Shown here: positions 43,401 through 64,000 of the stretch, one piece after another
Layout: each line of letters begins with the position of its first letter
Numbering within the stretch: the first letter of the stretch is position 1
Assembly: GCA_045837725.1 (NCBI GenBank)
Contig: JBEWZL010000239.1
Coordinates: 558,001 to 622,000, forward strand
Origin: Vermamoeba vermiformis
Taxonomy: Eukaryota
Length of the DNA stretch: 64,000 nucleotides
Direction of reading: 5' to 3'
Program-made: the position numbers and the translations under genes
Notes under the pieces: generated by a model
Told to the model about the DNA's origin: nothing
The model's input: only the letters and a program-made list of their open reading frames with translations
Databases searched by the model: none

Positions 43401-45022
43401 CTCTTCCACTCGATCAGCGAGTCGTGGCAGAGTGCCAGCGCCAAGAACATGATGGACGTCAAAGAACTCATCCCTGAATTCTTTTACCTCTCGGACTTCT
43501 TGCTCAACTCCAATCGATTCATATTTGGCAAGCGACAGGACGGCTCGGTGGTCAATCACGTGGTGTTGCCTGCCTGGGCTAAAAATAGTCCGCGCTACTT
43601 TGTGCACTTGCATCGCCGCGCACTGGAGAGCGAGCACGTGTCCAATCAGCTGCACCTGTGGATCGATCTCATCTTTGGCGCCAAGCAGCGCGGCAGTGAG
43701 GCAGTGCAGGCCCTGAATGTGTTCCATCCCCTCACCTACGAGGGCACCGTCGATGTGGATCGCATCGATGACCCGATCAAGCGACGTGCCATCATCGATC
43801 AGATCAATCACTTCGGTCAGACCCCCGCTCAACTCTTCACCAAGGCACATCCCAAGCGCGCTGCACGCACTGAACAGCGCGGTCTGTTTGATGTGAGCAC
43901 GAGTGCTGTGGCCGTGAATGTGAAGACACTGACGCAAGCTGTCGGGGAGATGCGCGTGGTGCACGACAAGTTGATCGCGCTCGAGCTCAAAAAGGTAAAA
44001 CATCCATTGCCTAATTAGGACATTGACTGACACTGGACTAGCGCGTGTTGCAAGCCGTGAACAACAGCATCAAGTGGGTCACATGGGGATACGAGGACTA
44101 CACAGTGCGCGTGTGGGAGAACGACAAGCTGCTGCAGATCATTGATCGCGGGGCCTGGGATCAGATCCAACACGTCGCCACGTCCATCGATGGCAAGTAC
44201 TTGGCACTGGCTGGTGGCCGCGACTGCGTGCTGTCCATCTATCGCTTGCGAATGCGCAATGTGTGGCGCCAAGCTGAAGAGACCGCAGAGGAGTCGGCAC
44301 TGACACCGACCACCAAGAAAAAGAAGCGTGGTCTGGCCCTGGGACTGACAGCCCTCAAGTTGATTGCACAGCCGCAGCTTATGATGCACAAAGACAGCTT
44401 TGAGTGGTGGTCCAATCTGCTCGCCCATCAAGCCCCCATCACTGCCGTAGACATCTCGCGTCGCTGGTCCATCATCGCGTCAGGCGATCAGAACGGCAAG
44501 TTGTGCGTGTGGGACCTCAACAAGCGATTCAATGCCGTCGTGTGGCAACGCGACACCTCACTCGGCCCGCACTACTTGGGCGATGAACCGACCTCGCGCG
44601 GTGTCAATTTGATTGCTGTCAATGCTGTCACCGGCGACATTGTCACGTGTTTCAGCACGTGGTTCAATCTGTGGACGATCAACGGCGAGCTCATTCTCGC
44701 GCACAACACCTCCAATTCACCCGCGCAACAGATCACCAGTGTGAGTTGGATGCCAGGCGCGACACAGACCGATGAGATCTATGCTGTCGTCACGGGACAT
44801 CGCGATGGCACCATCAAGGTGTGGAAGTTCAATCACCTCGACAAGGAACTGCGCCCCAATCCCAATATGGTCATGCTCGCACAACTGCAACAACACCGCT
44901 CAGCCATCACCTCGCTGTGCGTCTCTGAACGGCGCATCATCTCAGGCGATCACGTGGGTCAGATCTACGCCTGGCTGACCAAAGACGATGCAGAAGAGTT
45001 CATCAAGAAGAAAAAATTCTAA
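34482..45022 (+). CDS. BEACH-domain protein (LvsA/WDFY3-like: ARM, ConA/LamG, PH-BEACH, WD40)
   Basis: LamG-like segment GYTLMFWF...WYHLILVH. PH-BEACH motifs RRYLLRPVALELF, GRSYNDLTQYPVFPW, HYGSHYSS, DVKELIPEFF and FGQTP. C-terminal WD40 repeats, with no FYVE domain seen. Confidence 0.93.
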
Positions 45023-45091
45023 ATTTTGCGAATATGTAAAGTACAATGTAAATACTGTAGAAATACGCTACATTTATGTAATTACAGTGCC

Positions 45092-47847
45092 CTATTTATT
45101 TACATGCCAGGCAGCGATGAGTTGTGGCCCCAAGCTGAGCGTGACGGGCAGCAGCGGCGAGTAGTGTTTGATGCCGCTCTTGTTCGCAGCACTCTGATAC
45201 TGCTCCACGCACTTCACTGCCACGCGCCACAGCTCTTCTTCGCTGTGTTGGGCCCAGTACTCGAGCCACTGTGCCACCGACTTGTTCAGCACACTCGGAG
45301 GTCTCTCCGCACCGAGTCGTGACAGCAAGTGGTGCCACACCAGCGAGGGGGGCAGTCGTGACACCTCTGGCAATGTGCCACTGATCTCCGCACTATCTCG
45401 GAACAGCAGCTGTTTGAACCACTTGATCCATTGCAGTTGTGCACACGGTTCACTGAACAGCGCCATGACACTCACTTCAAACTGCGCGATGTCACCTGTC
45501 AGTGTCAATTTGCCACTGCCTTCGAGGGGTGGCAACAGACTCACGTGACGCAAGAACAGTTCTGTCAACCTGCCCACACGTCAGTTGAGTGTTTGCAAGA
45601 ATTTTGTTGCCTTACCAAGCCTGTGTTGCGCGCACTTTGTCAATTATGTACGGTGTTTGCATTAATTTGTCGAGCAGTGCCTTGAACTGCTGCAATTGCC
45701 TTTTTAGGAGCTTCATGTAGGGCGACACGAAGCTATTATTAGCCACATCGCTGTCAGTGCTCGCGGTGAATTCAGTCTTCTGCATCATCTGCAGCGTCTT
45801 CTCACAGCTCTTCATGAATCGACCAAACAGTGGCTCGGTGACACTCTGATTGATCACGTGCTCGATCTGATCAATGGATTCGCGCAAAGGTTGCATGAGT
45901 GCCGCGGAATAAGTCGCCAACACAGTGTCACGTGTGTGCTGAATGAACTGCACGACACTGTTGTGCAAGATCACGTGATTGGAGTGCCACGTGACACCAT
46001 CGCTGCCCTGGTTGATGGATGTGTCACGTGCCACTGCCTCGCTCACTTTGGTGCTGAGTGGTCGCAGTGCACTGCACACCGTTTTGACCAATCGTTGACC
46101 GAGAGTGTCGGTGCCGTCGAGTGAAGTCGGGTACAACAGACACTTGTCGATGAGCTGTTTGATCACGTGACTGCACTGCAACAACTCTGCCAAATACGGA
46201 CATTTCTCCGCGTCCTCCACCACGACAGTCGCGGCAGTGTTGGGTGCAGCGAGTTTGGCGAGTTTGTTGAAGCAGAGCTCCACGCCGCGGAACACCGTGT
46301 TGCGCGTGCTGGTGTGGTACTCGCTCTCTGCGGCACTGAACACCTCGCGCAACTGTCGCGTCGCACTGTCACGTGACTGCTTCGAGGTCTTGGTGCGCAC
46401 TTGCACTTGATCAAATTGCGCGTCTATTTTTAGCGACAAGTCAGCGAGCAGTGCGTAGACACGTGGGTACTCGAGTGCGAGGGCCTCGTACTGCATGGGA
46501 CTGGCGTTGACTGATTTGACGCGAATCACGTGACTGATCATTTCACTGAAGTGCGTGCTGAAGGACTTCCAAAACGAGCGAATGAACAGCTCGTCGATCA
46601 CGTGAAGAGTGTCCAGTTCAAAGTCACGTGATTCGTGTCCGAGTTGTTCCGCAAGCAACGAGACAATATTTGCATTAATTCTATCAGGCACGTGCAATCT
46701 GACGACAGCACGCATGATGGTGATGAGTTCGCTCCACTTGTCTTCAATCTTGTCGCTGATCTTGCCCAGCACCGTCCAAATAGAGCCTGTCACGTGACTG
46801 GCAGCACGTGGCAGTGGAGAGCCAGTGAGGCTATTATTAGCGCGAGAATCGGTGCGCGCAGCTGCATTGTGACTCTGATAGCTCTTCATGAACAGTGCCT
46901 GCATCTCCGCGGAGATCGCATTGATCACGTGGTGGTGTTTGACTTTGTGTTGACCAGTGCCGAGAGCCAGCTGCGTGGCCGCAAAGGTGAGCAGATCTTG
47001 CACAATCACGTGCACACTGAGGTGCAACATGTCGAGCAGCATATTGAAGTGATAGAACACGAGCAGCGCGGTCGAGATCACGTGATGACTGCGCAGTTCG
47101 ATGCCCTTCATGAACGCGCTCACAGCCTGTTCCAGCACGCTGTTCTTGCGCGCACTGAGCTGCAGCTGCATTCGCTCGATCACGTGCACGCCCTGCAGCT
47201 CCGCACTGCTGCCGAGGAGATCGCACTGCACCAAGTACTGCGCGGCACGAATCAGCTGTTCACCGCTCTCACTCGATTGCAGCGCACTCAACTTCTTCCA
47301 CAGTGTCATGTACTGACCCACACGACGCAGCACGTGACTCGCTTCTTGCACACGTGGCAGTTGGCGCGTGCGTGTGGCGAGCAGTTGCGCGGGGCCAGTG
47401 AGCTGTGTGGCGACACGCGTGACTTGACTCTGCAGCTGTGTGACGGACTGCGACACCTCGCGCACTGATTGGTCGAGTCCTGCAGCTGTTTCGAGTGCCC
47501 CTGCCTCGCGTAACAGCGATTCTTTGCCACCTGCGATCTGTGAGACAGATTCAGTCGTCGAGCTAGACGTCACATTATTCAGCTGTGACTGACCTGCAAT
47601 TTTATCAATTGATCGAGTTGAAATAATGACGATGCTAAAAAGTCATTCTTCTTCGTCTCTGACAGAAAGTGCTGGATGTACTTGCCAACCTCGAAGTCCT
47701 CTGAGAAGAAGTCGCGATATCTCTCTATGAAAATTGTACATGAATATATGCCGAATTTCTACATCGTGTAATGAATTCATTACCATCTTGCTTGAACTGG
47801 ATCAGCGCTTGTTCAGGATCCAAAATTGGCTCTGCACCATTATCCAT
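45092..47847 (-). CDS. COG5: Conserved oligomeric Golgi complex subunit 5
   Basis: N-terminal FFSEDFEVGKY, coiled coil, and C-terminal FLRHVSLLPPLEGSGKLTLTGDIAQFE and WFKQLLF. Confidence 0.8.
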
Positions 47848-48022
47848 AATTGCGCTATTCTAGTCACCTCAAATTCATATAAATCAACGCACGACAATAA
47901 GTCCCTGTTGTAGTTGCGTGCGTTCAAAGGTTTGAAATAAAGAAATTTGCGACAAGGCGCAGAACAATCACACCCGCGTATTATATATAAGGGTCGTTTT
48001 TATGTTGATTACAAGAGCGTCT

Positions 48023-48568
48023 TTAATAACCGACGACGGCGTTCTTGGTCTTCTTGTCACCACCAATTTCGAATTTCTTGCATCTTCTGATGGGCTTGAA
48101 ACTCTTGAATCCGCAAACAGTGCATTCCAACTTCAACACAATCTTCTTGGTTGTTTTAGCCTTTATAATACGAGCTATTATTATTTCATTCCTCGGGTTA
48201 CAAAATTATCGAACAATAATAATTAATAAATAGCCTGTTATTGTAATAGTAATAAATCGTGTAATAATTACCTTCTTGTGGAAAATGGGTTTACCCTGAC
48301 CACCATAACCCTTTTGTTTGCGATCGTAACGTCTCTTACCTAGTATTGAAATAAATAATAATATTCAAAAATATAATGTTAGAAAATTAGTATTTATCAT
48401 ACCTTGAGCGTACAATCGGGCAGCACCAGTTTTGTATTGCGAAACCTTGTGCAAAGTGTGCTTCTTGCACTTCTTGGATCGGCAGTGAGTTTTGCGTTGT
48501 TTAGGAACGTTGACCTATAAATCTATCAATAACAGCCCTACGCAATGGAAGTTAAAATAACGCACCAT
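48023..48568 (-). CDS. RPL36A: 60S ribosomal protein eL42 (L36a/L44)
   Basis: [12 protein letters not shown]...[36 protein letters not shown], with 3 introns. Confidence 0.97.
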
Positions 48569-48908
48569 TTTGAAGACCTCTCTTATTCTATTGGATGCGG
48601 GGCAACTAAAGGGAACTACGAAGAACAAGATTGGACGGAAAGAAAAAAATTTGGCCTACCCTGAATTTTGACTGTCAAAAAATTGACCAATCAGGTAACA
48701 GCGAGCAAAATCAACGGACAAACAGAAATTACAGCAAGCACAAGATTTTTTCTGTTCTGATTGCACGGGGAGATTGCAAAGCTCAATTCGCGATAAACTC
48801 TACAACGAAAGATCATTCATTGACTTGTAGCAGACTTGCTCACCCCCTTCTGTCTAACTTGTTATTTATTTAAATTTTATTTTTAACGTCTCACGGAGGT
48901 TACTCGCT

Positions 48909-50665
48909 ATGGGTCAAGGCAGTGGCAAAGGAGACAAACCTATCACGATCGACATCGATCTTACTGAGACGACATTAGAGAAGTTTTTGCAAGAGGCGAA
49001 AAAAACAAACAGTCTCAAAAGCATCGAAAAACTCGATCTGTCACGAAGAGAGTTGAATGAACTACCACCACAAATCAGCAAAATAGTTAATTTGAAAGTA
49101 TTGAATATTTATGATAATGCTCTGAAGCAATTGCCTTCTGAAATTGGTAAGCAATAATATATTTTTTTTTAATTTGAATTGAACCGCTGTATTTCAAATT
49201 AAAAACGCATCAAATAATGTTACTATCAGTAAAAGCATGATATATACCCTTCATATTTACAATTTTTTAATCTCTATTAAAAGATTTATTTGCCCGCAGC
49301 TGACTGATTCAATTCAATTAAATTTAGGCAAATTGACTCAACTTACTGCGTTGGGTATTAACGAAAACTCATTGACCTCTGTACCAAATGAAATTGGTGA
49401 ATTGAAGGCCCTCACTTTGTTGGATTTGAGATACAACAAGCTCACCGAAGTGCCCAAAGAAATCGGCAATTTGAGCAAATTACAAAAGTTATACTTGCGT
49501 TTCAACAAATTGGAGGAGTTGCCTGAAGAGCTAGGTAAATAGCGCCGATACTATTCAATATTGAAACACTTGTTTGCGTCCCATCTGACTGTAATTTGTA
49601 CTCCTAGGCCAATTGAGCGAGTTGGAGATACTCAGTGTGCGCAATAACAAACTCGAGCACATACCCGAGAGTGTGAGCAAGCTAGTGGCGCTCAAGACGC
49701 TAGACATGCAGCACAATAACGTCGCCAAACTGCCCCCGATCCGCGATCTGCGACAGCTTGAAATTCTCGATGTGCAATACAACAAGATTGCAGAGCTGCC
49801 TGACGGTTTGGGCAACTTGAAGCAACTGAAGCACTTGCACCTCAAGTACAATCAGCTCAAAGAATTGCCGAGTGAAGTGGGTACACTGTCGAATCTGGAG
49901 GAGTTAGATCTGGAGGGCAATCGATTGACTGCCCTGCCCGACACACTCACCGCACTCAGCAGATTATTGAAGTTATATATCAATCGCAATCAGTTCGCAG
50001 AGCTGCCAGCTTGTTTAGCGAGTCTGGTGACGGTGGATGAGCTGTGGGTGAATGGCAATTACATCAGCAACTGCGATGTGGTGATTCATCTCACGAGACT
50101 GCGCACGTTGAATATGAGCAGCAATACGATAGGACAGCTGCCACCTCAGCTCGCTAATTTGAGTCTGTTGCGCGATCTGGACATTAGCGGCAACAACTTG
50201 ACCTCGATCGATTCACTCTCACCGTTCAGTGCGCTGGGGGCATTGCAAGTGCTCAACTTGTCTGGCAACGACCTCGCGCAGATCACTGGCGAGTTGGGTG
50301 ACTTGCCCTCGCTCGAGAAGCTGTACTTGAACGAGAACGAGCTGACCTCACTGCCCGCAGAGATTGGTCGCTTGACGAGCTTGTTGGAACTCAATTTGGA
50401 CGAGAACAAACTCACCTCATTGCCACGCGAGATTGGTCAGCTCTGCTCGCTCGAGATCCTCAACTTCAACCAGAATGATTTGAACGACTTGCCTGACGAG
50501 ATCTACTTGCTGCCACTCAAAATGTTTGGCATTGACGACAATCCACTCGAAAATATTCCTGCTGAAGTTGTTGAAGGCGGCAGTCAAGAAGTGTTTGATT
50601 ACTTGGGTCAACGACTTCAAGATCCAAATCTACGACGACAGAGCGGCGATCACAATTCAGAATGA
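48909..50665 (+). CDS. Leucine-rich repeat protein (SHOC2/RSU1-like repeats), possibly N-myristoylated
   Basis: Tandem LxxLxLxxNxLxxLPxEIG repeats and an MGQGSGK N-terminus. Confidence 0.88.
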
Positions 50666-50980
50666 GAGCTAATGCCTTAAATAGTGAGCGCGACCATCGC
50701 TCATTTGTATAAATCCAAACTAACGTCGAACCAAACCTTGTAATTTATGAATCGTTATGTAAAACACTCCCACCTATTTATGATTAAGAGTGATCCTCTA
50801 CTGTCTTCCGGGTGCTTGGGTCTCTAAAAGAACCAAACCAGAATACCGACGTTACTGCTTTTGCATCTCCCAGTAAATCGAAAACGCACTACAATATCCT
50901 CTGGTCATTGATGTCAGGGAAAAAAGGTTGTTCTACACATCATGCTTGGAAGCACCACTGATTTGACAGATGAGCTATTC

Positions 50981-51595
50981 TGCCAAGTAATTGGCCTGGG
51001 TGGCCGGTCTCCTGGGCCACAAAGGCTCAGCTGGCCACACTCCAAGTTGGCCTGTAACTTTTTGCCATACTTCAGTAAACAGAAAAACTGGCATTGCAAT
51101 GTATTTCACCGTATTGATAAGGCACTCCACAAAGTACGCAAACATTTCTCAAGGAGGTCGGCCAGGCCAAGTTGGCCAGTGTGGCCGGCCAAGCCTTTGT
51201 GGCCGGCCCGGCCAGTCCGGCCGGCCAGGTATGTAGGCATGGTACAAGGCACCAACTGGTGCGTCTGTACATATGAGGCATTAGTATACATATTACTGTA
51301 CCATTGGCTGATAACAAACCACTAGTAACTGACATCCAGAAAAATAAACAAATGGCAGACAGCAGGAATTGAACCTGGGACTGTATGGCTACGCAGATTT
51401 TTTGTAAGTCCAATAAATAAAAATCCATGCAGATACCAGGAATTGAACCCAGGGCAACCCCACCCCCATACAAACTTATCATAAAATTTTGCCTACAGCA
51501 GGAATTGAACCTGCTCCTGCATCCTTCCTGGAAAAATTACGAAGTCCTACCGGCCACCCTGACCAAACCGGCCACCCTGGCCAATTACTTGGGCA
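50981..51595. mobile_element. MITE-like element of about 615 bp with ~28-bp terminal inverted repeats and internal GGCC micro-repeats
   Basis: TGCCAAGTAATTGGCCTGGGTGGCCGGT (50981-51008) matches the reverse complement of 51567-51595, TGCCCAAGTAATTGGCCAGGGTGGCCGGT. No clear TSD and no credible ORF. Confidence 0.65.
51362..51514 (-). promoter_or_regulatory. Three tRNA T-arm/Pol III B-box-like cassettes
   Basis: Minus-strand GGTTCAATTCC lies inside T-arm-like stems at 51362-51378, 51436-51452 and 51498-51514. Confidence 0.65.
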
Positions 51596-51692
51596 AAGCG
51601 TTGGAGGCTGAAAATGGCAAAGTTCTGCAAAGAACTTATACACTGGAACTTTGTTCTTTATGCTGCCATACACTTAACTTTAGTATCAGCGT

Positions 51693-51890
51693 ATTAGCAC
51701 TATTGGCCGCTACAACTGGGTTATTAGCATTCTATTCCATGAGAACCAGGTGATTGCGGGTCTGGCGCCCTGTCCAAGTTTGACATCCTTCTGGAGGTCG
51801 TCTTGCTCAATTTGAGCAGGACGTCCGGATTTGGACAGGGCGTCCGCCGTCACTAGGTTCTCATGGAATAAAAGGCCAATAGCACCTAAT
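51693..51890. repeat. Imperfect palindrome (foldback/MITE-like) of about 200 bp
   Basis: Arms are TATTCCATGAGAACCAGGTG and CACTAGGTTCTCATGGAATA, with inner arms GCCCTGTCC/GGACAGGGC and centre CGTCTTGCTCAA-T-TTGAGCAGGACG. Confidence 0.7.
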
Positions 51891-52420
51891 TGTCGTGGAC
51901 ACCTATATTTTGGATGAGTTTGATGGTTTCCTTGCAAGCTGTAGGGATTGAGCTGAGGAAATTTCCTCAGTTTTTGAAATCAAGCTCCAAATGGCTCAAG
52001 TAACAAAGATTTTGATAACTACGGCTTGGCATGACATACGGAATCGTTTGCAACATAGTGGACAGTCAGAGTTCAAAAGAAAGAATCAACATTTGCACTT
52101 TGTTATGAGAAACTTCTCATTCACAACAATCCATTTCTGGCACAGTTCTATGCAGAACTACATATCTATAGGATGATGGAGGATGGCCAGTCCAGGCTGG
52201 CTCTCATATCCATGCAGTATCACATATCCGGCCCGGATAAGTCATCCGACCCGGATATGTTGTTTGTCCCGGACAAGTCATTTGTCCCGGCTAAGTGACA
52301 ACTTCCGGATAAGTACCTACAGTTGCAGATAAAAAGTTTATTTTAATGAATACACTATATCTATTATCTAAATATATATGAGTAATGAAATTGAGTAGGA
52401 TCTGCTAACAAGAAGATGAG

Positions 52421-54257
52421 TTAGGTGGACTTCTGCTTCTTTGCAGAACTTTGAGTAGGGCCAGAAGCATCTGAGCTGTCATCATCAGGAGCTGCTCGTT
52501 TTCTGCTAGGGGAGTGCGTTGGTGATGATGGAGGTGTTATTGGGGTACCTAGAAGACGAGAAACTTCATGGTAAACTTGTTCCACATCTTCAGCTGTCAA
52601 GTTTGCAAATTGGTTATTGCGTTCAGCTTCCTGCAATGATTTGGAGGCTTTCATCATGACGGAGAATGCCAACTGCCATTTCTTATCTGAAGTATGGTTC
52701 CCAAAGTTTCGTTGACGAGCCTCTTCAGTGATATCGCGCAGTTTTTTGCTTGCCTCAGCAAAGTTCAAGAACAATTGTCTATATAGCTGGAATTGCTCAC
52801 TTTTCTCTCTATCTGACAAAATTTCACGGATGATCTTGTCTCTTTGGTTTGCATTTGATGGGACAGGAGATGGGGGATCCATTTCTGGGATTTCATCAAA
52901 TTCATCATTTTCATACTCTCTGGAGTAAACAGAGTCATTGTGCTCTGCATCCTCAGAATCTTCGATAGATAAGCTTTCTGAGTTCTCTTCCCAATCTTCA
53001 TTGCCTTGTTCAGTTGCAGGAGGGGCTCTTTCAGCTACTTCACCATCTGTCTGCAAGGCAAGGAACTCTTCAAATGTGAGGTTGCAGTGCTCTGTTGCTT
53101 CAGTGTCCTGCTGTATGGCGGTTTGTGTTGGCTCATACCTGTAATAAATTAGACTTTGCTGAGTTCTGCACAGAACACATACACAAAAAGCTTGTGGTTG
53201 GCAGGGGGCTGGATCTTTCTTGATTGCTGAGGCAATCCTAGATTGTAGAGTGCTGCACAGATTCTGAATGCTACATTAAAGAGCTGATGATCCAGGCGCC
53301 AGATGAGCTTCAGAACTTTAAATGTTGACTTAAGTCTTCCAAACACTCTTTCAATTGCACTACGGATGTGCCTGTGGACTTTGTTGCTTGCTTTCTGGCG
53401 CAGAGACAATTGTCTGCCCTTGTATTTGATGATTGGAACTGTTCATGTAATCAGAATTCATAAATCCACTTCCTTCAGCAACATACCCCAAAAAGCATTC
53501 TTCTTAAAGTCCTTTACAAATGCACCATCAGCAATAGTGAAGTCTTCTCCAACAACAGCTTTGTAGTCTTTGATGTAGATGGACAAAAGTTTTTGGTCAT
53601 TGTGAGACCCAGCTGGATGCGACTCTTTTGAGACATAGATAATCTTGTCATTGAAATCTGTTGCTGCTAGAGTTGTTAAAGCCCCACGCTTTAGCTTGAA
53701 GCTGTGGTGAGAATCTTTTTGTGCACTGCTGGTCTCAGCTGGGCAATGAGTTCCATCTAACAATGCTCGTATTTTGGAGTATGGCTCCATCAGAACATTC
53801 TCTGCTGCATCTTTTCTTTCTGCTGCAGTTGAGGTGATGTGCTCAGATGGAAAATCTTTCAGCTTTGAATACATTAGTTCTATGTAGATCTTGACGTACA
53901 ATGCATACCAAATCAAGCATACAACGGATAAACTCAGACATGGTTGAGCTAGGAATGCCATAATCATCATAGAAGGACATAATTGGACTATAACAAAGCC
54001 AATGGATGAAGATCAAACATGCATCACTAATTGATAGATAGGATCTATCGAATATTAGACAAACATAATGCAATGTAATGCACTTACGGTACTAGTTTTG
54101 GCGGATGCTTCTTGCCCTCAGGCACAGTATTCAAAACTCACTTCAAATACTTGTACAAAGTGTACTGAGCAGCCTTGTGCACTTTGGCAACCTTTGCCAC
54201 CAGTTGCTTGAAATGGCGCTTAGAGGGGCGCCTTAGCTTCTTGGGAGATCTCTCCAT
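52421..54257 (-). CDS. Harbinger/ISL2EU-type DDE transposase (HTH + DDE_Tnp_4) with an acidic, NLS-like C-terminal extension; 4 introns
   Basis: HTH-like LSISDACLIFIHWL...YGIPSSTMSEFI, catalytic motifs LLDGTH, GSHND and IADGAF, and RSAIERVFGRLKSTFKVL. GT-AG introns keep the frame by eye. Confidence 0.85.
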
Positions 54258-54886
54258 TACTATACAATAAGATTAAGTCACTATTTTTGCATCATGTTTG
54301 CAGATCTACTATGACTTTACTAATGCACCAAAAAACTTGAATTAAATATATAAGATAGTACCCCCCATATACATTATATATGTATAATAAGAGCCCTTAT
54401 ATAGAGGGTGTGTCCTATGGCGGTCCTGCACAAGATCCAGATCTAAAAAAATTCAAAACTCTTACAAATATTTTCTGGAATCTCAGGACAGTGCCAAAAT
54501 TTCGAAAATCAATTATAATAACATATTGTAATTATATTGGGCCTTCTAAGTAGGGTACAACTTACCTCTAAGTTTTCTCTCAGTCTTTGGCTTAGATCTG
54601 ACTTTAATTAATGATGTAATTGAAATTTAATATATTTCTAACAGGTATTTATTAGTGTTACAATTATAACCCTGTTAGTGGGTGATGATACTGCAATAAA
54701 AAAAAAAATAAAAAAGTGGGTTACCAGGATTTGAACCTGGGACTTCTGTGTGATTGCCAACCATCGGAAGGTATTGTAAAAACCCATTTGGGTGTATTTC
54801 ATTTATTCTTTGTGTGTAAAGTTTTCTTTTGCTTTTCTATTGTTCTTCAGTTTATTAGGCAGAATTAGCTAACACCAGAATAAATA

Positions 54887-56327
54887 TCAAAGTTTGTTTG
54901 CAAGTAAGAAGGCAGTACGGAATGAGCTGTCTGCCTCTGCTTGCTGCTGTTGTTGTAGAATTGTCATGAACTGGGCCTGTTGCTGTGCCATAGAGTGTCT
55001 GTGCTGCATTTGCTGCAACTCCAGTATACTTTGGAGATATTGGTTGCTTGCATTGTTTGCAGTATTCAACACAGAAGTGGGAACTGGGCTGGGTGTCAAT
55101 CCTGTAGTTTGAGGACTCAAGTGGACAGCTGGAACTCCAACTAATTCAGTTGTGTTAGTGGCAGCAGTGGGTGCAGCTTGCGGTGGTGGGAGCTTTGGTA
55201 ATGTTGGCTTGTGAATGGACTTTGTCTTGTTCTTAAGTGGGATAACTTCATCTTCTGACTCTGATGGAGAAAAACTTTGCAATTGTCGTCGTTTGACCAA
55301 AGAAGGCTCTACTACAGCAATAGGTCTCTTCTGATCTTTAGCAACAAGTCCCTTGCTTGCTCCTGTAAACGTCTTTGTCAAAACCTATCGGTAATAGAAT
55401 TTGCTACCTTTTTTGCTTGGCGCAGCTGGCTTTACCAGTGTTCTTGAGGCATGTACTGGCTGGGTCCTAGAAGCCTTTTTTGCTGGCTCTGTTTTCACAG
55501 TAGGTTTTGGAGAGACTTTTCTAGTCTGGACAACGTAAATAAATAGGGTTATTTTGTTTCTGACATACCTTTGCTGCATAATAAGCCTTAAACAATTCAT
55601 CCAGGCACTCCTTTTGACTATTGCTAGCTTTGCCTTCAACTGACTTGACATCACTGAACTTGACTTCAATTACAGATTTAAGGGAAGGATCTGCAAGGAG
55701 AACCTTGTTGAATTGCTTATTGCGAATGATGAATAGCACTGTATGCAAGCCAATGACATTTTTTACAACCACTGTATCTCCAACTTCGACAGCAAAGTCA
55801 TCCATCCGCCGAGTCACTTTATAATAATAATTGCCATTCCAAGGCTCTCCATGGTACTTGTAGAACTCAGTATATACCTCTAAATCAGCAACAAGTCAGA
55901 GTTGATCCAACAATGCCTTATTACTTACCTTTGTCATCGGCAGAGTTCAGCCCGCGGAAGGAAGATTTTTCTTCTTGGACAGTGTCATTGCTTACTATAA
56001 TTGATTTATGTATGAGTAACACTTACAATAATAAATTAATATGTACCTTCATTATTGGAGTTACCAATAGGAATTTTGGTTTGCCGATCAGGATCGAGGG
56101 ACTCAATTTTTTCTTCTAGCCATTAAAAATTAGTTTCCTTATAAATAAAGAGACATCATAATGTTGGGAAAATTATAGAATAATTAAGAGAGTTAATTAC
56201 CAGCTATTAATGATTCCCGAGTGGATTTTGGACTGGGCGGGGGATTTTGCTTTGGCTGCTGGGCTTCACTGTCAACTGATGCAGCAGTAGGGTTGTCAAT
56301 TAATACCTTGTCAGTATCCTCACTCAT
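54887..56327 (-). CDS. Transposon accessory protein: acidic N-terminus, BAH/SH3-like beta-barrel, Pro/Gln-rich tail (multi-exon)
   Basis: ATG at 56327 (MSEDTDKV...). Exons join through GT-AG introns to NYYKVTRRMDDFAVEVGDTVVVKNVIGLHTVLFII...IEVKFSDV and then to ORFs 55385-55669 and 54887-55381. Confidence 0.6.
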
Positions 56328-57174
56328 TGTGGTGTTCATGTAATGATTTCCGAGGACAATTGGATTTGGTTACCCATAAAAGGAAATTAACCAGGGCACT
56401 TGCTACGGAGAAGTTATTTGACCATTATTTCATTCCAATAATACCATTAAACAACACCTATAGTTCAAATCACCTATTATATACCTCATACAACACATCA
56501 TTATCAAGGCAACTCAATGGATTCAAAACTAATGTAAGTCAAGGTGGATTTAACTTTACATCTTGCTCGGAAATTATTACATATGAAGACATATATCAAT
56601 TTATAATTATATATGCATTACAATAATTTAAATATGCTAGTTTAATGGCTATTTTGAATTTTTGAGGAGAAAATTGATGGCATAATTTCATATCCAGCTC
56701 GGAAATTGTTAGGTATCAACATAATACATAATAATAACATATGTATGCTGCTTATATTATATATATCCCATATCTATCATTTTGGGGCTGATCATTGCAT
56801 ATTCAAAAAGCCTATTATCTGTTCTGTCTCGTGCACCAGTCAAATCCTTGCCGTAAGAGGGTTTTCAATCTATAGTATCATTACTAATTAACCAAATTGT
56901 TTCAAACATGGTGTATGCATTTGTACATATACAATGAGCAATACTAAAGCTTTGATATATATTTTAAAGATAGTTTTGCTAGTTCAGTTCTGCCGATCTA
57001 GATCAGACAAGATCCACTACTCATGAGTAAAAGAGAATTGAAGTAACTCCTATCCCTATTCATTGTGCTTACAATTATTTATGCTATTAGTAATGGCAGT
57101 AGCTGGACTATTGAGTTAATGCAAGTAAAGTTCTCTCAGGTCATCTTTGTTGACAATTTCTGTGCCTTACCCAG

Positions 57175-57470
57175 ACTTTGCCGAACTCTATTAAGTATAT
57201 ATATGGTATTACAATACCTCATGTAGTTTATGTATGCAATTGATTTTGGTAAGAAAAATCATGATTGCCCAACACTGGTGTAACGTAACTTTAACTTCAA
57301 CTTCGTGTGCAGCACGACTTTGCCGAACTCAACTAAATATAATGCTGGCAGTTATTCATTGCATCTAATATATATATAGCACTGTTATGGCTAGCTAAAA
57401 TCGTAGGGGTTCACAGTGGTGCGCATCAACCCTCTTGCTGCTGACGTAAAACAGCACTACTTTGCCGAAC
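57175..57470 (+). repeat. Degenerate 142-bp tandem repeat with a conserved ACTTTGCCGAAC core
   Basis: The exact 12-mer occurs at 57175, 57317 and 57459 (spacing 142, 142). Units 1 and 2 align weakly along their length. Confidence 0.75.
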
Positions 57471-57585
57471 GACTCTTACTATTCTATGCTATTGATCATC
57501 ATATAATGATACAAAATTGACCAACAATATAGATTTTAAAAATCACTATTCATGTGCAGTTCATTAATACTGTTACTTCAGGAAA

Positions 57586-60500
57586 ATGACATTCCAAGGC
57601 TTTCAATGGGGCTCTAACAGTAAGTTAAGCACTATTAATAGAATGACCTAACAATGGTAGATATGAATGACCTATGCACTATTGAGACAGTTGGCTTCGT
57701 TCTTCGGCTAGTGCTGCAAAAATTGCCAGGACACAAGTTTGAGAGTGACTTTTTTAAACTATTGACGGGTTGGATTAATAATGGACCACTATCCAATGAA
57801 AGGCTACACCAATTAAAATTGGATCTGATAGATGCCCTTGGTCCTGTTGTAGGCTGGGTGCCTTGCAAGACTTATGTCTCAATTGGTGCAATACTCACGG
57901 CAGCTTTCAAAACTCTGTCAATTGCCGAATCAGCATTATTTGTCTCTACTCTTAAAGTTGTTAGCCACTGCAAATGTCCTACAACAACAAAGCTATTTCA
58001 TCAAGTGGCAGTTTTTGTTGAAGAAAAACTGACTGACAGTACACTCTCACTCCAAGCTGCACTCAACCACTTAGCAGACTACAACTGCCAGCTACCCATC
58101 AACTGCTATGATTGTGGAATACAACCTGTTGAACATCGTAAGTTCAATTAGAAGAAATGAATTTGATATTAAACTGTGTAGGTACATTGGAGTTGCCACA
58201 AGTTTTGACTGTCGAGTTAGGAAGACTCAAAAGGCAATTTAGCAACCCAAATATAACCATCGAGCCAGTTTTAACTGTCAACAATTGTCAGTATTACCTA
58301 TTAGCTGTAATGATGTGCCCACACTACATGCTATTTTGTGCAACAGTCAGTCTTGTATTTCTATGATGGCATGCAAAATGAAGGAATTGCCACTCCAGTG
58401 GCAGAAACACTTGAAACAAGCAAATCTAAGATATATTATGACCACATTGTGTACTTAAAACGACAGGTAATTTAACCTGGTTTAGTTCTTCTAAGCATTA
58501 ACTCTTGGTAGAATTCTGCACCTGTTTCGAAAGCCATCAATGCAAAAGACCTATTTACTACCTTGCAAGTGCAGCCAGAAAGTACCCCAATTGCCTCGCA
58601 GAATCTGTTCCAAGTCCTAACAAAGAATATCATTCCATCTGAAAAACTCAAGTCATTAAAAAAACAAAAGTTACTTGGGGCTGATTCAATTAACAAAGGT
58701 ACTTATAACTTGCAAATTTTACATCTAACTAACATTTTCCAGTTGCAGCTACAAACTGTTGTAAGGCTAGATGTACTGAACTCTTCACTACCAGCCAGAT
58801 TCTGGAAAGCCGCAAGATGGTGGCTGAGCTCAATGACAGTCAGAAAACTAAGTGGCTGATGAAATTTTTTGAAACAAACATGAACATTGATAGCCCAGCT
58901 GTTGCTTTCCTGGTAGGAGGTGTATCAGTTTGTCAGCTTGCATTTTGCAGAGTTTATGGAGTGTCTGTCGACAAGGTTATTCAATGCAAGCAACAATACC
59001 TAAATGGAACAAAGGCTCATATGCATGGTAATTGCTTTCGGGTGTATGACTCCCCAAAGAGAGACTCAGTAGCCGCTTGGATCCAAAACTATTGCAATAC
59101 ATATGGTGATTATGTGCCAACTAAAGATGAAATTCACTTACCATCACACATGACGTAAGTTCTTGTTCTGATACTGTGATTGCTAACCAATGCAAGTGTG
59201 AAGGAATGGTACAATCTGTTTTCTGGTGAATTTGCCAATCTTCACCCAGGAGCTGACACACCAAGCTATGAAACTTTCAAGCAGGTCAAGCGCAAATGGT
59301 TTGCAGTAAGTTACTATGTGCATCTTTCAATTTTGCTAAAGATTTTAGAATGTTAAACGCCCGAAGGAGACTCGACTTGGCAAATGTTCAACCTGTTTAT
59401 TGATTAAACAACGGCGACTACAGTGCCCTTCAGAAGATAAGCTGTTGCAATTGAAACAGCAGATGAATGAACACATAGATTATATTACAAAGGACAGACA
59501 GATGTATCGGCAAAGAGCAGATATTGCCATTAAGCAACCCTTCTTGAAGATGAGCATCATTACAGACAAAAGTGGCAGTTTTCAACTTCCTCAGCACCAT
59601 CCAATGCCAAAAGAATGGGCGAATATTAACCTTTTGCAAGCAAGCTTTGTAGGCTTCATTAACCACGGGCTGAACAAGAAAGAGTTAGTGTTTTTCAAGG
59701 AGTCTGATTACATTGCAGATGCAGACTTTTACATCTCACTCCTGTTCCATCATTTGAAAGAATCTTTGCTATCAATTCAACCACAAAATAGACCGACAAC
59801 ACTGTATTTACAAGTAGATAACAGTGCAGCTGAAGGCAAAAATCAATATTTGCTTCAATTTGCAGCATTACTAGTGCACAATGAGTGGTTTGAAGAGGTT
59901 TTCATTCATTATTTACAACCTGGCCACACACATGAAGATATTGACCGACTATTTCAACCATTTCATACTTACTTCCAATGGAAAGTTATTGAAACTATGA
60001 ATGATGCTATTACATTTGCAAAGTCAATCTATCCCAAGGATGTGTATATTCATGAACTCCAATGGCCCATTCTTTCCTGGAAAAAGTGGTTTCTCACATT
60101 CTGCTCATCAATGAGTGGTCACAAAGACAAATATGCTTTTTGGCTAAAGAAAGGACTTGATGGCACTCCAACACTCCTGTTCAAACAAAAATCTCTCGAT
60201 GAAAATTGGATTGAAGTTGAAGAATCAGTGTTTAGTCATTCTCCGTCAGCCGAACCTGTAGCACTTCAACCAAACCCTGTGTCCAAGGAGTTGATAGCCA
60301 CAATAGTGACAAAGACCTCTAAATTTCTTTCTGAAAAGGTGAGGATTGTACTTTACTATTCAGTTACTAACATGTTGCAGGGCATCGAATATTACAAAGG
60401 TCTGGAGAGAACAGAAGAGGTGAAAGTTATGACAGAATTGTTCCAGATTGGCCAAGTTAAACGTGAAGGACCAGAGCTTGTGGTCTCATCAGAAAAAGAA

Positions 60501-60777
60501 CCAACAATGGTCAATTTAAAGAAGCGCAAACGGCAGGTTGAAGGTACCTTCAAATCATAGGTTTATTCTTAATTGTTACTCATTTTTGTTTGCAGATGAG
60601 GCAGAATGGGTAGTTAAAAGTATTATAGACCACCGAAAAGTTGGACGTAAGTTAGAGTGGCTGGTACTTTGGGACGGAGGACAACAGTCCTGGGAGCCAC
60701 GTAATTGCTTCATAGATGCAGACCAAAGCAAGAATGAAGTATGGGCTGACTATGAAAAGAAGAGATTGAGCAAATGA
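57586..60777 (+). CDS. Fusion of a USP-like cysteine protease, a Sola-type DDD transposase and a C-terminal chromodomain; apparent frameshift near 58327
   Basis: Protease part: GFQWGSN..C, CKC/CYDC, LPQVLTVEL, YYLLAV..HY/TCYF..FYDGM. Transposase part: CCKARC, VCQLAFCRVYGVS, HGN, GDYVP..IHLP, KCSTC, IITD, LQVDNS..EGKN, GHTHEDID. Chromodomain: EWVVKSIIDHR..LEWLVLWDG..SWEP. Confidence 0.8.
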
Positions 60778-61189
60778 TAGTCTAAAATAAATGAAATATA
60801 CCCAACTGGGTTTTTACAATACCTTTCGATAACCCCCATTTCCACTACCTGCTTCCGGATAGCCGAAACGCTCCGGATAGCCGAGCCGAGCCGGACCGGC
60901 CATCCCCCGATAGCTCAAATAGCACACAATTTTTGGATAGGATGTTAAACTGTTCTTTGTGCCCCAAACATGTCCTGGTTGCAAAAATACGTTATTTTCT
61001 TGATAAAGACGCTGAAATTACATCCATTAGCCACAATATCCAACTTTCCAATGTATGGTGATTACAATTCTTTCTCTATCTCCAGTGGCTGGAAGCTGAT
61101 GTGGATAGAAAGTTCATACCTAGTAGTATCCTATATATGCTCTGCCTACTGCAGCAAACAGAATTGAATTTCGTTAATTACTAACTTCA

Positions 61190-61500
61190 GCAGACGCCCT
61201 GTCGCCATGTCCCTGGATGGACACCCTGTCTATGGACGGACGTTCCGTCTAATTTGGGCAGGACGACCTCCTCTCAAATTGAGCAAGAAAACCCTAAGAC
61301 AGACAAGGCGACATAGGACAAGCTACAGATGGGACGTCCGCCCATAACAAAGTGCACTTGTGGATGCTTTCTATTTCGTCCATCTTTGACAGAGGGGACG
61401 TCCACCATTGACTATGACAGGTCCACTCAAACGATGGCCAAGCTGCATCTGTTGCTTTTTATTATGAGAACCTAGTGTGGCTAACGCCCTGTGGGTGTCT
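61190..61500. repeat. Degenerate repeat cluster related to the 51693-51890 palindrome
   Basis: Shares ACGCCCTGT, GGACGTCC, GCAGGACGACCTCC/AAATTGAGCAAG and ATGAGAACCTAGTG motifs with 51720-51880. Confidence 0.6.
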
Positions 61501-61765
61501 TCTTCCATGGACGTTGGGTGGGTGTAGGACTATGATCTTAGTGATCTTTTACTGTTCAATTTAGACCTGCTCCTGTCACGCCTCCTTTTGTAGACTGACA
61601 TTGGAGTCCTATTTTTCTTTCCAGACTCAACACTGAAAAAAAGAGTGGTAATGTTCACACAATGGTCAGCTATTGCCGGTTTCATCAGCCAGGCTATCCT
61701 CGAAAACACCCGGGAGTCCAATACAGATTTTGCGTTCAGTGAAAGAAAGATGTTACTTTCTCCCA

Positions 61766-63089
61766 CTATTTATTTGGCAATGGTAGTTCATAAACAGCCA
61801 ACTGATGCGCTTGAAATCGAGATTTCATTGCCAGGTACTGATTTTCAGTGGCTTGCGCCTCACTAAATATAAGGAGCTGTTCCATGTCAGTTGGTGTCTT
61901 GCTGGTCTCTCGTTCTTTTGGGTACTACAACGAGTTAATATTCATCAGTGCACCCCCTCAGAATATACCTTCAATGCAAGCTGAATGTACTGTACGCCAT
62001 CAATCAGGGCATTCCAGTTGATGTGAGTGTGTCCGAACACGTGACTGACAGATTTGATGCTCTAAAAATAACTCCTAGTTGGGTCGTACTCACCGAAAAT
62101 AAAGGCGTCAGTTACGTACGCGGATCTGCTCATCTAATTTTAGCGAGCCAACAACTTTAGGCAAGTACGGAATAAACAGCCTCTCACGTGCTAGCCAGAT
62201 TGTGAGTGGTGGCAATGTGACAGCTGGCTACTTACGCGGCAGACACTCTGGTCGCGGCAAGAAGTGCGAGAATGAAATGACAGGTGCGTCGTAACTGCGA
62301 TTGACACGTGTCAAATTGAGGTTCAGAAAGTATTGCTCGGGTGTATTCAGCACAGAATCATCGCCCTGGTTGAGGTGTTCTGGCAGCCATTTGCTGCATC
62401 TAAAATTAGATAGATTGACAGCTGGTGGCACATTACCAAAAGCGGTAATCATTCCAGCCTGCGAGAATTCGTTTCTCTTCGTCCTGCGCGAGGGGCACGG
62501 CATCGAATGAGCGGTGGTACCTGCAGTGTCACAGTGTTATATATATAGCGCTGCCTATACTCCTGCGCGTACCACGAGAACAGCGGCACGATCCAGATCG
62601 GATGTGCAGTGCCAATCTTGGTCGGTTCAGTGAGTACACCGTGCTTGCGACAGAGGAGCAGGATCTTGTTGAACTTGTCTACGGAGTGCTGTATTGAGGG
62701 GTCGTTGCGATCGTCCGTCAGCCACAGATCGTGATTGCCTAATTAGTATCGTCAGTCTCAACTCAGGACTGGCTTGACTGACCTGGCACATAGAAGACGT
62801 AGTGAAATTTGGAGGTGAGAGCGACGAAGAACTCTTCCAATAGCGCTAGTCGGTGCGTCACTGCGTCATAATAGTAAATTAAAGACTAATTAGTCTGCAA
62901 CTTTTCTGAATTAATGCGCGGTGCATTGAACCACTCATAATGCAACACTAGTGGTGCCGTACCATCACCTGCTACGATCAGTGCATCGTGGATGTATTCT
63001 GTGTTCGATAGATTGCGCACCCACTCCATGTTCGGTGCGTAGTCGATGTGCACATCTGAAGTGCAAAACACGCGCAAGGAGGGCTGCAT
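61766..63089 (-). CDS. Calcineurin-like metallophosphoesterase (multi-exon)
   Basis: Motifs SDVHID, LIVAGD, VPGNHDLW, SFSHFLP and HVFGHTH. The 3' exon is approximate. Confidence 0.85.
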
Positions 63090-63287
63090 GATGTGAGTAG
63101 CGATACTACTGCTACTGAGGGTATGTACTTGGTGCTCGGTGACCACTCGTGTCTCGTGTGTTTGTATCGATCAAAATAAAGCGAGTTTACAACGTCAGCA
63201 TTTATTTTTGTATACAACCGACCACGTGACTGCAGTCATTGATCACGTGACTGATATACCAGTTCCCACAACAGAAATCACGTGCCT

Positions 63288-64000
63288 CTACACGCCCAGT
63301 GCCTCCACGACCCCCTCGCCCGTGGTGCTGTCGTACAAGAAAGTGTTGCGCAGTGGCTCGTCGACACGTGTCAGCAGTTTGATGGCCTCCTGTGCCACCA
63401 CGCCACCAATCACCGCGCACACCGGAGACAGCTCCGCGCGGGCATTGACTGCCACATTTCTGCAAAGATTAGTCGTACAGTTCACTGAAAAAACACGTGA
63501 CTCACTTGAGATAACTGTCGCTGACCAGGGCTGTGTCAGCACCGCGTGACGTCAGCAAGCTATTTTTAGTCTCCACCAGGGCCTGCATCTCGTCCTCACT
63601 CCGCGGCAGTGGATGCGCATCCAAGTAGTGCAGCAGCGCTGTTGACAGGTGTCAATCAGTGACTCAGAGCGAGTGCACGACACGTACCTTGTGTGGCTAT
63701 AAATAGCTTGTGTGTCTGACGGTCCACTTTGCACTGCGACACGTGCTCGTAGCTCGGGAACACGATCTCGCGCTGCTCTTCAATTTCCTTATCGGGCAAT
63801 TTCCTAATTAGGGGCAAGTGAGTCACGTGTCCCACAACAGCCGTGGTGGCGTACCGTTTGTACTGGTGCGTGAGTAGATCTGAGAATGCATAGCCGTATC
63901 GACCCAACACTTGCGCGACAATGAGCGGTACTTGCGCTGCGCGCGTGCGTGCATTCAACGCTTGGATGTGCGCGTGGCTGAGTCCGATCGCGATGATGAG
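63288..64000 (-). CDS. SAE1: SUMO-activating enzyme subunit 1 (Aos1/SAE1, ThiF family), 3' part
   Basis: GRYGYAFSDL..HQY and AELSPVCAVIGGVVAQEAIKLL...PLRNTFLYD...GEGVVE. Confidence 0.8.

What the first reader, a model, noticed from the sequence alone, without database searches (positions are those of the whole stretch)
54887..56327. Divergent accessory gene in the Sola-like element with a BAH/SH3-like barrel: candidate anti-silencing or targeting factor
Seen in the sequence: a second multi-exon gene lies within the TIRs, head-to-head with the transposase. It has one globular beta-rich segment (YYKV...FAVEVGDTVVVK...HTVLFII...IEVKFSDV) between disordered acidic and Pro/Gln-rich tracts. Inference: the segment resembles a BAH/Tudor/KOW-type barrel, so this could be a second chromatin reader. 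Autonomous Sola elements are generally described with one transposase ORF. VANDAL VANC proteins are a precedent for transposon-encoded anti-silencing proteins.
Basis: partly seen in the sequence, partly recalled or inferred. Interest (0 to 1): 0.7.

Follow-up and report, generated by a model that had tools for sequence, protein, structure and literature searches.

The report
Orphan barrel gene inside DNA transposon
A cut-and-paste transposon carries, next to its transposase, an intact second gene for a small beta-barrel protein with almost no known relatives; the gene is real and looks conserved, but its proposed role as a chromatin reader remains only a weak lead.

Summary
A six-exon, 388-codon gene on the minus strand (56327 to 54887) has five GT-AG introns and no internal stop. 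It lies inside a 6,068-bp element bounded by 45-nt terminal inverted repeats (TIRs) and a 4-bp AACC duplication. It is head-to-head with a DUF7869-type transposase that ends in an HP1-like chromodomain.

Exon 4 encodes a beta-rich module followed by a C-terminal helix. It matches no Pfam family and no PDB sequence. About ten relatives were found, all unnamed single-exon ORFs, 44-99% identical and gap-free. Similarity stops at the exon's donor site. GC3 (0.38) matches the transposase (0.36-0.39), not the host genes (0.62-0.74). So this is a transposon gene under constraint, not a fresh host capture.

The BAH idea is only a lead. One AlphaFold model of ten was confident. Its best PDB matches were BAH domains, but at E 0.03-0.15 and TM 0.49-0.56. 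A second run failed (pLDDT 50).

Co-occurrence with the TIRs in other copies, dN/dS and expression could not be tested. The likeliest role is a chromatin- or DNA-binding transposition cofactor. Anti-silencing has no support. An opposite-strand accessory gene in a Sola element is already published (Ectocarpus).

The parts
54759..54762 (.). Left target-site duplication, AACC
   Evidence: Same 4 bases at 60831-60834
54763..54807 (+). Left terminal inverted repeat (45 nt)
   Evidence: 93% complementary to 60786-60830; blastn E 1.4e-12
54851..54856 (-). AATAAA, a candidate polyadenylation signal, starting 31 nt after the accessory gene's stop
54887..55362 (-). Accessory gene exon 6. Acidic Ser cluster, Pro-rich tract, Gln-rich C-terminus and the TGA stop at 54889-54887. 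Contains a PAVHL (PxVxL-like) motif at 55132-55118
   Evidence: No Pfam family above cut-off and no PDB match
55408..55525 (-). Accessory gene exon 5: Lys/Pro/Ala-rich basic linker (residues 196-236: K+R 10, D+E 1)
   Evidence: The 45-nt GT-AG intron after it removes an in-frame TAG
55569..55879 (-). Accessory gene exon 4: conserved beta-barrel plus C-terminal helix (P0001 = 55877-55569, 103 aa)
55929..55994 (-). Accessory gene exon 3 (acidic)
   Evidence: The DNA is conserved in the copy that encodes P0006
56047..56115 (-). Accessory gene exon 2
56201..56327 (-). Accessory gene exon 1, with the ATG at 56327
56328..57653 (.). AT-rich (33% GC) divergent intergenic region, the presumed shared promoter. 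Holds three exact ACTTTGCCGAAC 12-mers at 57175, 57317 and 57459, spaced 142 bp
57654..58148 (+). First open frame of the transposase gene, starting at an ATG
   Evidence: No Pfam match
59349..60341 (+). Transposase catalytic core exon (DUF7869). Candidate acidic triad D73, D157, D197/D199. Ends at a donor site conserved after KFLSEK
   Evidence: Pfam PF25273, E 7.9e-39; alignment A4
60589..60777 (+). Transposase C-terminal chromodomain-like exon, with the stop at 60775-60777
   Evidence: PDB phmmer CBX5 E 2.4e-4; Pfam Chromo E 0.012, below cut-off
60786..60830 (-). Right terminal inverted repeat
60831..60834 (.). Right target-site duplication, AACC

Best explanation
The region is an intact second gene that belongs to a 6.07-kb cut-and-paste DNA transposon. 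It is not host DNA. It is transcribed divergently from the transposase, out of a shared 1.3-kb AT-rich central region.

It encodes a 388-aa protein with four parts:
- an acidic N-terminal tail;
- a conserved module of about 100 aa, a beta-barrel plus a helix, with no recognised family;
- a Lys/Pro-rich basic linker;
- a Pro/Gln-rich C-terminus.

Shown: the gene is intact; it sits inside the TIRs; its codon composition is transposon-like; and the barrel exon is conserved far better than the adjoining non-coding DNA.

Inferred: the protein is nuclear and binds chromatin or DNA through the barrel and the basic linker. It would serve as a non-catalytic transposition cofactor that brings the chromodomain-bearing transposase, or the element's ends, to their substrate. 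That is the role the Myb-like second protein plays in PIF/Harbinger elements.
For: - Gene model: six exons, 0 internal stops, all GT-AG, AATAAA after the stop.
- Position: between the TIRs and the 4-bp duplication. Its stop lies 80 bp from the left TIR, and the transposase stop lies 9 bp from the right TIR.
- Composition: GC3 is 0.38, against 0.36-0.39 for three transposase frames and 0.62-0.74 for five host frames. The codon-usage correlation is 0.68 with the transposase core and 0.21-0.44 with four host frames.
- Relatives: 3 true hits among 1.84 billion representatives, and 9 proteins at E <= 0.01 among the 10 candidates scored in the near-length search. Together that is 10 different sequences.
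- Conservation: all 10 align to exon 4 without a gap at 44-99% identity. All 9 that reach the end keep K|V at the donor site.
- Contrast with flanking DNA: outside the 99% copy, identity past the boundary is 1-2 of 2-14 residues. In P0006 the exon is 82/103 identical, against 15/35 for the upstream out-of-frame stretch.
- No longer protein carries the domain.
- The barrel has K+R 17 against D+E 12, and the linker 10 against 1.
- Transposase relatives are similarly few: 5, at 30-88% identity.
- Precedent for an opposite-strand accessory gene in a Sola element: PMC12477816.
Against: - No DNA of any other copy could be fetched. Co-occurrence of the two genes inside shared TIRs is therefore unshown, and dN/dS was not computed.
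- The relatives were found as predicted ORFs. That favours open copies and inflates the apparent constraint.
- The 99% copy (P0009) sits on a 10,133-bp contig, yet no comparably close transposase core was returned. The best was 88%.
- None of the 8 distant DUF7869 loci carries a relative of the gene, so it is not a general partner of that transposase family.
- No DNA- or chromatin-binding family is matched by sequence.
- The fold prediction is unstable.
- Expression and splicing are untested.
Confidence: 0.5

Rival explanations
1. One reading: the barrel is a BAH-type histone-mark reader. Together with the transposase chromodomain it steers integration into, or retention in, particular chromatin such as heterochromatin.
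For: - BAH-bearing chains (DNMT1, MET1, BAHCC1, TNRC18, ORC1) are the first 9 rows and 21 of the 41 rows shown in the PDB fold search, with TMq 0.49-0.56.
- Several are methyl-lysine readers by their entry titles.
- Aromatic residues Y8, W13, Y17 and Y18 of P0001 are kept in the 44% homologue.
- The transposase has an HP1-like chromodomain.
Against: - No fold match reaches E <= 0.001; the best is 0.028.
- Only 1 of 5 models was confident, and the repeat run gave pLDDT 50.
- None of the 11 members matches Pfam BAH at E <= 10.
- The viral fold library and the Atlas point instead to generic small barrels, DUF7246 and DUF3104.
- The module is about 100 aa, against 152-157 aa for the isolated BAH chains matched.
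- The geometry of any aromatic cage could not be inspected.
Confidence: 0.17
2. A passenger gene. It was captured from some host, past or present, rides in this transposon subfamily and has no role in transposition.
For: - It is absent from all 8 distant DUF7869 loci.
- Accessory genes of unknown function are common in DNA transposons (PMC12477816).
- Its relatives could not be placed in any genomic context.
Against: - No protein longer than a single-exon ORF carries the domain among 1.84 billion representatives or in the 'longer' search.
- GC3 and codon usage match the transposase, not the host genes.
- The gene is complete, with its own start, stop and AATAAA, and fits tightly between the TIR and the central region.
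- It is conserved down to 44% identity.
Confidence: 0.15
3. An anti-silencing factor in the manner of VANDAL VANC. It would bind the element's own DNA, for instance the three 12-mers in the central region, and relieve repression.
For: Only circumstantial: a non-transposase protein encoded by the element, and three exact ACTTTGCCGAAC copies spaced 142 bp in the shared promoter region (expected 0.37; 1 of 100 shuffles reached 3).
Against: No similarity to any anti-silencing protein was tested or found. No result bears on methylation or silencing. VANC biology is recalled here, not read.
Confidence: 0.05
4. A recently dead or never-expressed open frame. The splice model would be fortuitous, and the conservation would reflect young copies only.
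For: Expression is untested. Most relatives are 69-99% identical. The ORF-based searches favour open copies.
Against: - Five consecutive GT-AG junctions keep the frame open for 388 codons.
- The 44% homologue aligns gap-free over 110 residues at E 1.9e-27.
- Similarity collapses exactly at the donor site.
- Exons are 44% GC and introns 28.5%.
Confidence: 0.08

Closest known systems
PIF/Harbinger two-gene transposons (DDE_Tnp_4 transposase plus a Myb/SANT-like DNA-binding protein)
   Same: There are two genes inside one pair of TIRs, and the second protein is non-catalytic. In Harbinger it binds the transposase and the element's ends; that statement is established knowledge, recalled here. This is the working model for function.
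   Different: The transposase here is DUF7869-type, not DDE_Tnp_4. The duplication is 4 bp, not 3 bp. The second protein is a beta-barrel with no Myb/SANT match.
Sola1-1_Ec32 of Ectocarpus (PMC12477816, passages read)
   Same: A Sola-superfamily element with an accessory gene transcribed from the strand opposite the transposase.
   Different: That element is 21.5 kb. [quoted passage not shown] This element is 6.07 kb, and its accessory protein is 388 aa with an orphan barrel. Whether this element is Sola at all could not be tested here.
BAH domains of DNMT1, MET1, BAHCC1, TNRC18 and ORC1
   Same: They are the best structural matches to the one confident model. Both are beta-rich, distorted barrels.
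   Different: There is no sequence-level match. E-values are 0.028-0.15. The module is shorter. The model is not reproducible.
Chromodomain-bearing integrases of LTR retrotransposons (Gao et al. 2008; seen only as a reference-list entry in PMC12477816)
   Same: A mobile-element enzyme ends in a chromodomain, a precedent for chromatin-directed integration. This applies to the neighbouring transposase.
   Different: Here it is a cut-and-paste transposase. In the CBX5 alignment the third aromatic cage position reads G (which positions form the cage is recalled).
VANDAL VANC anti-silencing proteins (recalled)
   Same: A transposon-encoded protein that is not a transposase.
   Different: VANDALs are Mutator-like elements of plants. 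No similarity was tested and no supporting result was obtained.

Membership tests
BAH domain (Pfam PF01426) | Match to the family profile at or above its gathering score | tested here: not met
   No BAH hit for the exon-4 frame at E <= 1, nor for any of the 11 family members at E <= 10
BAH domain (Pfam PF01426) | Fold superimposable on solved BAH domains | tested here: inconclusive
   The best PDB matches are BAH-bearing chains, but at E 0.028-0.15 and TMq 0.49-0.56, none <= 0.001. The model is 1 of 5 confident, and the repeat run gave pLDDT 50
BAH domain (Pfam PF01426) | Aromatic pocket for methyl-lysine (reader subclass) | not testable with these tools
   Model coordinates are not exposed. 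The only evidence is conserved Y8, W13, Y17 and Y18 in the alignment
Sola superfamily of DNA transposons | Transposase similarity to reference Sola1, Sola2 or Sola3 transposases | not testable with these tools
   No Repbase or Sola profile is on hand. Pfam had no Sola family as of the 2017 paper PMC5751038. The defining papers are not held
Sola superfamily of DNA transposons | 4-bp target-site duplication (criterion recalled) | tested here: met
   AACC at 54759-54762 and at 60831-60834
Sola superfamily of DNA transposons | Acidic catalytic triad in an RNase H-like core | tested here: inconclusive
   D73, D157, D197 and D199 are invariant in 6 sequences down to 31% identity. Their catalytic role is assigned by pattern only
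DUF7869 (Pfam PF25273) proteins (the transposase) | Profile match above the gathering score | tested here: met
   133.7 bits against a cut-off of 26, E 7.9e-39, profile positions 2-190 of 192. All 5 relatives carry PF25273
PIF/Harbinger two-gene elements | DDE_Tnp_4 transposase and a Myb/SANT-like second protein | tested here: not met
   The transposase frames of this element match DUF7869, not DDE_Tnp_4. The accessory exons match no Myb/SANT family. A separate DDE_Tnp_4 remnant lies outside the element, at 53149-54012
Chromodomain (Pfam PF00385), transposase C-terminus | Sequence match to chromodomains | tested here: inconclusive
   Pfam gives 15.9 bits, below the 25.1 cut-off. PDB phmmer gives CBX5 at E 2.4e-4, and 26 of 30 listed sequences are chromodomain proteins: 22 CBX/HP1/CDY and 4 cpSRP43
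VANC-type anti-silencing proteins | Homology to VANC | not tested
   No VANC sequence or profile was available from a tool

The most novel reading that the evidence does not exclude
The barrel founds a new, transposon-restricted family of BAH-like histone or nucleosome readers. Paired with the transposase's own HP1-like chromodomain, it would give a cut-and-paste DNA transposon a two-reader system for choosing or hiding in particular chromatin. That mode of targeting is so far known mainly from LTR retrotransposon integrases.
Probability: 0.12. Interest if true: 0.75.

Novelty: new variant of a known kind. Interest (0 to 1): 0.4.

Why it matters
Two-gene DNA transposons show how mobile elements delegate DNA binding, nuclear import or targeting to a second protein. 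Here the second protein has no recognised family. Its partner is a transposase with a chromodomain, which is unusual for cut-and-paste elements.

If the barrel binds chromatin or the element's ends, it would define a new cofactor class. It would also give a compact 6-kb system for studying chromatin-directed DNA transposition.

If it is merely a passenger, it is one more orphan accessory gene, of which many are known.

Tried and rejected
Sequence and family searches on the barrel
- Pfam sub-threshold hits were judged to be noise: VRR_NUC (E 0.031), Tea_helical, and LpqV (17.7-17.9 bits against a cut-off of 25).
- P0005 (803 aa; five repeats matching query residues 63-89) is a repetitive chance match.
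- PDB sequence searches of the barrel, as a single sequence and as a profile, gave nothing relevant. The same holds for exon 6.
- PHROGs: 1 of 11 members matched, at E 0.018.
- ESM Atlas: nearest clusters are DUF3104 and DUF7246 at 0.79-0.85, below the level the tool treats as evidence. It holds no stored structure.
- Viral fold library: DUF7246 at E 6.4e-3, with no match <= 0.001.

Structure
- The second AlphaFold run, with P0003 as query, gave pLDDT 50. It was therefore not sent to a fold search.

Other copies and context
- There is no second copy of exon 4 or exon 6 in the window.
- The scan of bacterial and archaeal genome contigs found no relative of the barrel.
- The same scan with the transposase found 8 distant loci (25-35% identity). 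None has a relative of the accessory protein at E <= 0.05.
- The weak L005 hit (E 0.4) is not a homologue on inspection.
- Matching 'longest contig' lengths between the accessory and transposase hits gave no shared contig.

Other checks
- ARAGORN found no tRNA next to the element.
- Tandem Repeats Finder found no array in the central region.

Unavailable
- Bao et al. 2009 and Yuan and Wessler 2011 are not held.

Literature searches that found no description of this gene or of a BAH-bearing transposon protein.

Full report
THE OBSERVATION

The finding's coordinates match a real gene. On the minus strand an ATG begins at 56327 and a TGA ends at 54887. I fixed the junctions.

- Exons: 56327-56201, 56115-56047, 55994-55929, 55879-55569, 55525-55408 and 55362-54887.
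- Introns: 85, 52, 49, 43 and 45 nt, all GT-AG.
- The splice phases agree, and the spliced frame has 388 codons with no internal stop.
- The 45-nt intron removes an in-frame TAG.
- AATAAA follows the stop at 54856-54851.

This is not chance. Stops occur at 0.062 per codon on this strand, so open frames of 124 and 165 codons have P of about 4e-4 and 3e-5. Exons are 44% GC and introns 28.5%.

THE ELEMENT

- A 45-nt inverted repeat, 93% complementary, has arms at 54763-54807 and 60786-60830. It is the longest of the 17 inverted pairs found in 44000-64000; blastn gives E 1.4e-12.
- AACC flanks both ends. The element is therefore 6,068 bp with a 4-bp target-site duplication.
- The accessory gene's stop lies 80 bp inside the left repeat. 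The transposase's stop (60775-60777) lies 9 bp before the right repeat.
- The two genes diverge from a 1.3-kb central region with 33% GC.
- The transposase core (59349-60341) matches Pfam DUF7869 at E 7.9e-39. D73, D157, D197 and D199 are invariant in six sequences.
- Its last exon resembles HP1-type chromodomains. CBX5 scores E 2.4e-4, and 26 of the 30 listed PDB sequences are chromodomain proteins. Pfam Chromo stays under its cut-off.
- Whether the element is Sola could not be tested. No Sola profile is on hand, and the defining papers are not held. The 4-bp duplication agrees with my recollection of Sola.

THE PROTEIN

By composition:

- residues 1-92 are acidic (D+E 20, K+R 10);
- residues 93-195 are the Val/Lys/Tyr-rich module;
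- residues 196-236 are a Lys/Pro/Ala-rich basic linker (K+R 10, D+E 1);
- the remainder is Pro-rich, then Gln-rich.

No exon matches a Pfam family above its cut-off.

RELATIVES OF THE BARREL

- An exhaustive HMMER scan of 1.84 billion representatives gave 4 hits at E <= 0.001. Three are real (82%, 44% and a fragment at 86% identity). One is a repetitive chance match.
- The 90%-cluster database gave 9 proteins of 59-156 aa, 69-99% identical. All are unnamed, from jgi, ncbi, lgn and ena sources.
- The search among longer proteins gave none.
- Together that is 10 different relatives. All are single-exon frames that run into the flanking introns.
- All 10 align to exon 4 without a gap. All 9 that reach its end keep K|V at the donor site.
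- Outside the 99% copy, identity past that boundary falls to 1-2 of 2-14 residues.
- In P0006 the upstream stretch, which is exon 3 plus intron 3 read out of frame, is 15/35 identical. The exon itself is 82/103 identical.
- The 44% homologue aligns over 110 residues at E 1.9e-27.

This pattern indicates purifying selection on exon 4 and a conserved exon structure. One caveat applies: ORF-based databases favour open copies.

TRANSPOSON GENE OR HOST CAPTURE

- GC3 of the accessory coding sequence is 0.38. Three transposase frames have 0.36-0.39, and five host frames in the window have 0.62-0.74.
- The codon-usage correlation is 0.68 with the transposase core and 0.21-0.44 with four host frames.
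- No cellular protein with the domain was found.
- Relatives of the transposase core are similarly few: 5, at 30-88% identity.

I could not show that the two genes travel together elsewhere:

- no nucleotide context was obtainable;
- contig lengths of the two hit sets do not coincide;
- the 99% copy has no equally close transposase hit;
- 8 distant DUF7869 loci on contigs labelled as bacterial MAGs carry no relative of the gene.

THE FOLD

- With the 11-sequence alignment, one AlphaFold model reached pLDDT 89.4 and pTM 0.81. The other four reached 36-43.
- That model has eight strands and a helix at residues 86-102.
- Its best PDB matches are BAH-bearing chains: DNMT1 including isolated BAH1, MET1, BAHCC1, TNRC18 and ORC1. 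These are the first 9 rows and 21 of the 41 rows shown.
- Ribosomal chains (which I take, from recall, to be KOW/SH3-like barrel proteins) and a PWWP domain follow.
- E-values are 0.028-0.15, TMq is 0.49-0.56, and no match reaches 0.001.
- The viral fold library gives DUF7246 at E 6.4e-3. The Atlas gives DUF3104 and DUF7246 at 0.79-0.85.
- A repeat run with the 44% homologue as query gave pLDDT 50, with a similar strand-then-helix pattern.

The module is therefore a small beta-barrel with a C-terminal helix. BAH is the best lead for its fold, but it is not established.

FUNCTION

What is shown is an intact, conserved gene that belongs compositionally to the transposon. What I infer is a nuclear cofactor that binds chromatin or DNA and assists the chromodomain-bearing transposase, as the second protein of PIF/Harbinger elements does.

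- A specific histone-reader role is possible (about 0.17).
- A passenger gene is about 0.15.
- A dead frame is about 0.08.
- Anti-silencing is about 0.05, with no supporting result.

An opposite-strand accessory gene in a Sola1 element is already in print (PMC12477816, passages read). Eight literature searches found no description of this gene or of a BAH-bearing transposon protein.

WHAT STAYED UNCHECKED

- Cluster names were unavailable.
- Supplements were not consulted.
- Expression, dN/dS and the superfamily assignment remain open.

VERDICT

This is a new variant of a known kind, a two-gene DNA transposon. Interest is 0.4.

Noticed in passing
window 57175-57186, 57317-57328, 57459-57470: Three exact copies of ACTTTGCCGAAC, spaced exactly 142 bp, all in the divergent intergenic region. 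The expected count is 0.37, and 1 of 100 shuffles reached 3. The surrounding 142-bp units are only loosely alike. This is a possible binding site or a promoter repeat.
   Followed up: partly
window 60589-60777 (+): The transposase ends in an HP1-like chromodomain (CBX5 E 2.4e-4). In that alignment the position of the third aromatic cage residue reads G; which positions form the cage is recalled.
   Followed up: partly
window 53149-54012 (-): Two adjacent frames match PIF/Harbinger DDE_Tnp_4 (E 6.4e-10 and 0.0047). They are the remnant of a different transposon, about 750 bp to the left of this element.
   Followed up: no
window 54704-54762 and 51340-51382: The element is inserted in a short repeat that by eye resembles the 3' part of a tRNA, possibly a SINE. 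A 43-nt copy at 81% identity lies 3.4 kb away. ARAGORN finds no tRNA.
   Followed up: partly
window 18385-47642 versus 52000-61000: There is a strong composition contrast. Host frames (BEACH, Sec7, Slu7, COG5, LRR) have GC3 of 0.62-0.74 and very long exons (one frame of 1516 aa). The transposon frames have GC3 of 0.36-0.39 (0.41 for exon 4 on its own), and the accessory gene has many 43-85-nt introns.
   Followed up: partly
loci L001-L008, especially L006 10001-10562: Distant DUF7869 relatives (25-35% identity) sit on contigs labelled as bacterial MAGs, one of them inside a 732-kb Nitrospirales contig. Whether this is eukaryotic contamination or a true prokaryotic relative was not examined.
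   Followed up: no
window 55118-55132 (-): PAVHL in exon 6 fits the PxVxL pattern that HP1 chromoshadow domains bind (pattern recalled). It is the only such match in the protein. By rough estimate it could well be chance, and its conservation could not be checked.
   Followed up: no
window 60339-60345 (+): All five transposase relatives lose similarity right after KFLSEK|V. This marks a conserved donor site, even though the window's frame stays open for 72 more codons.
   Followed up: partly
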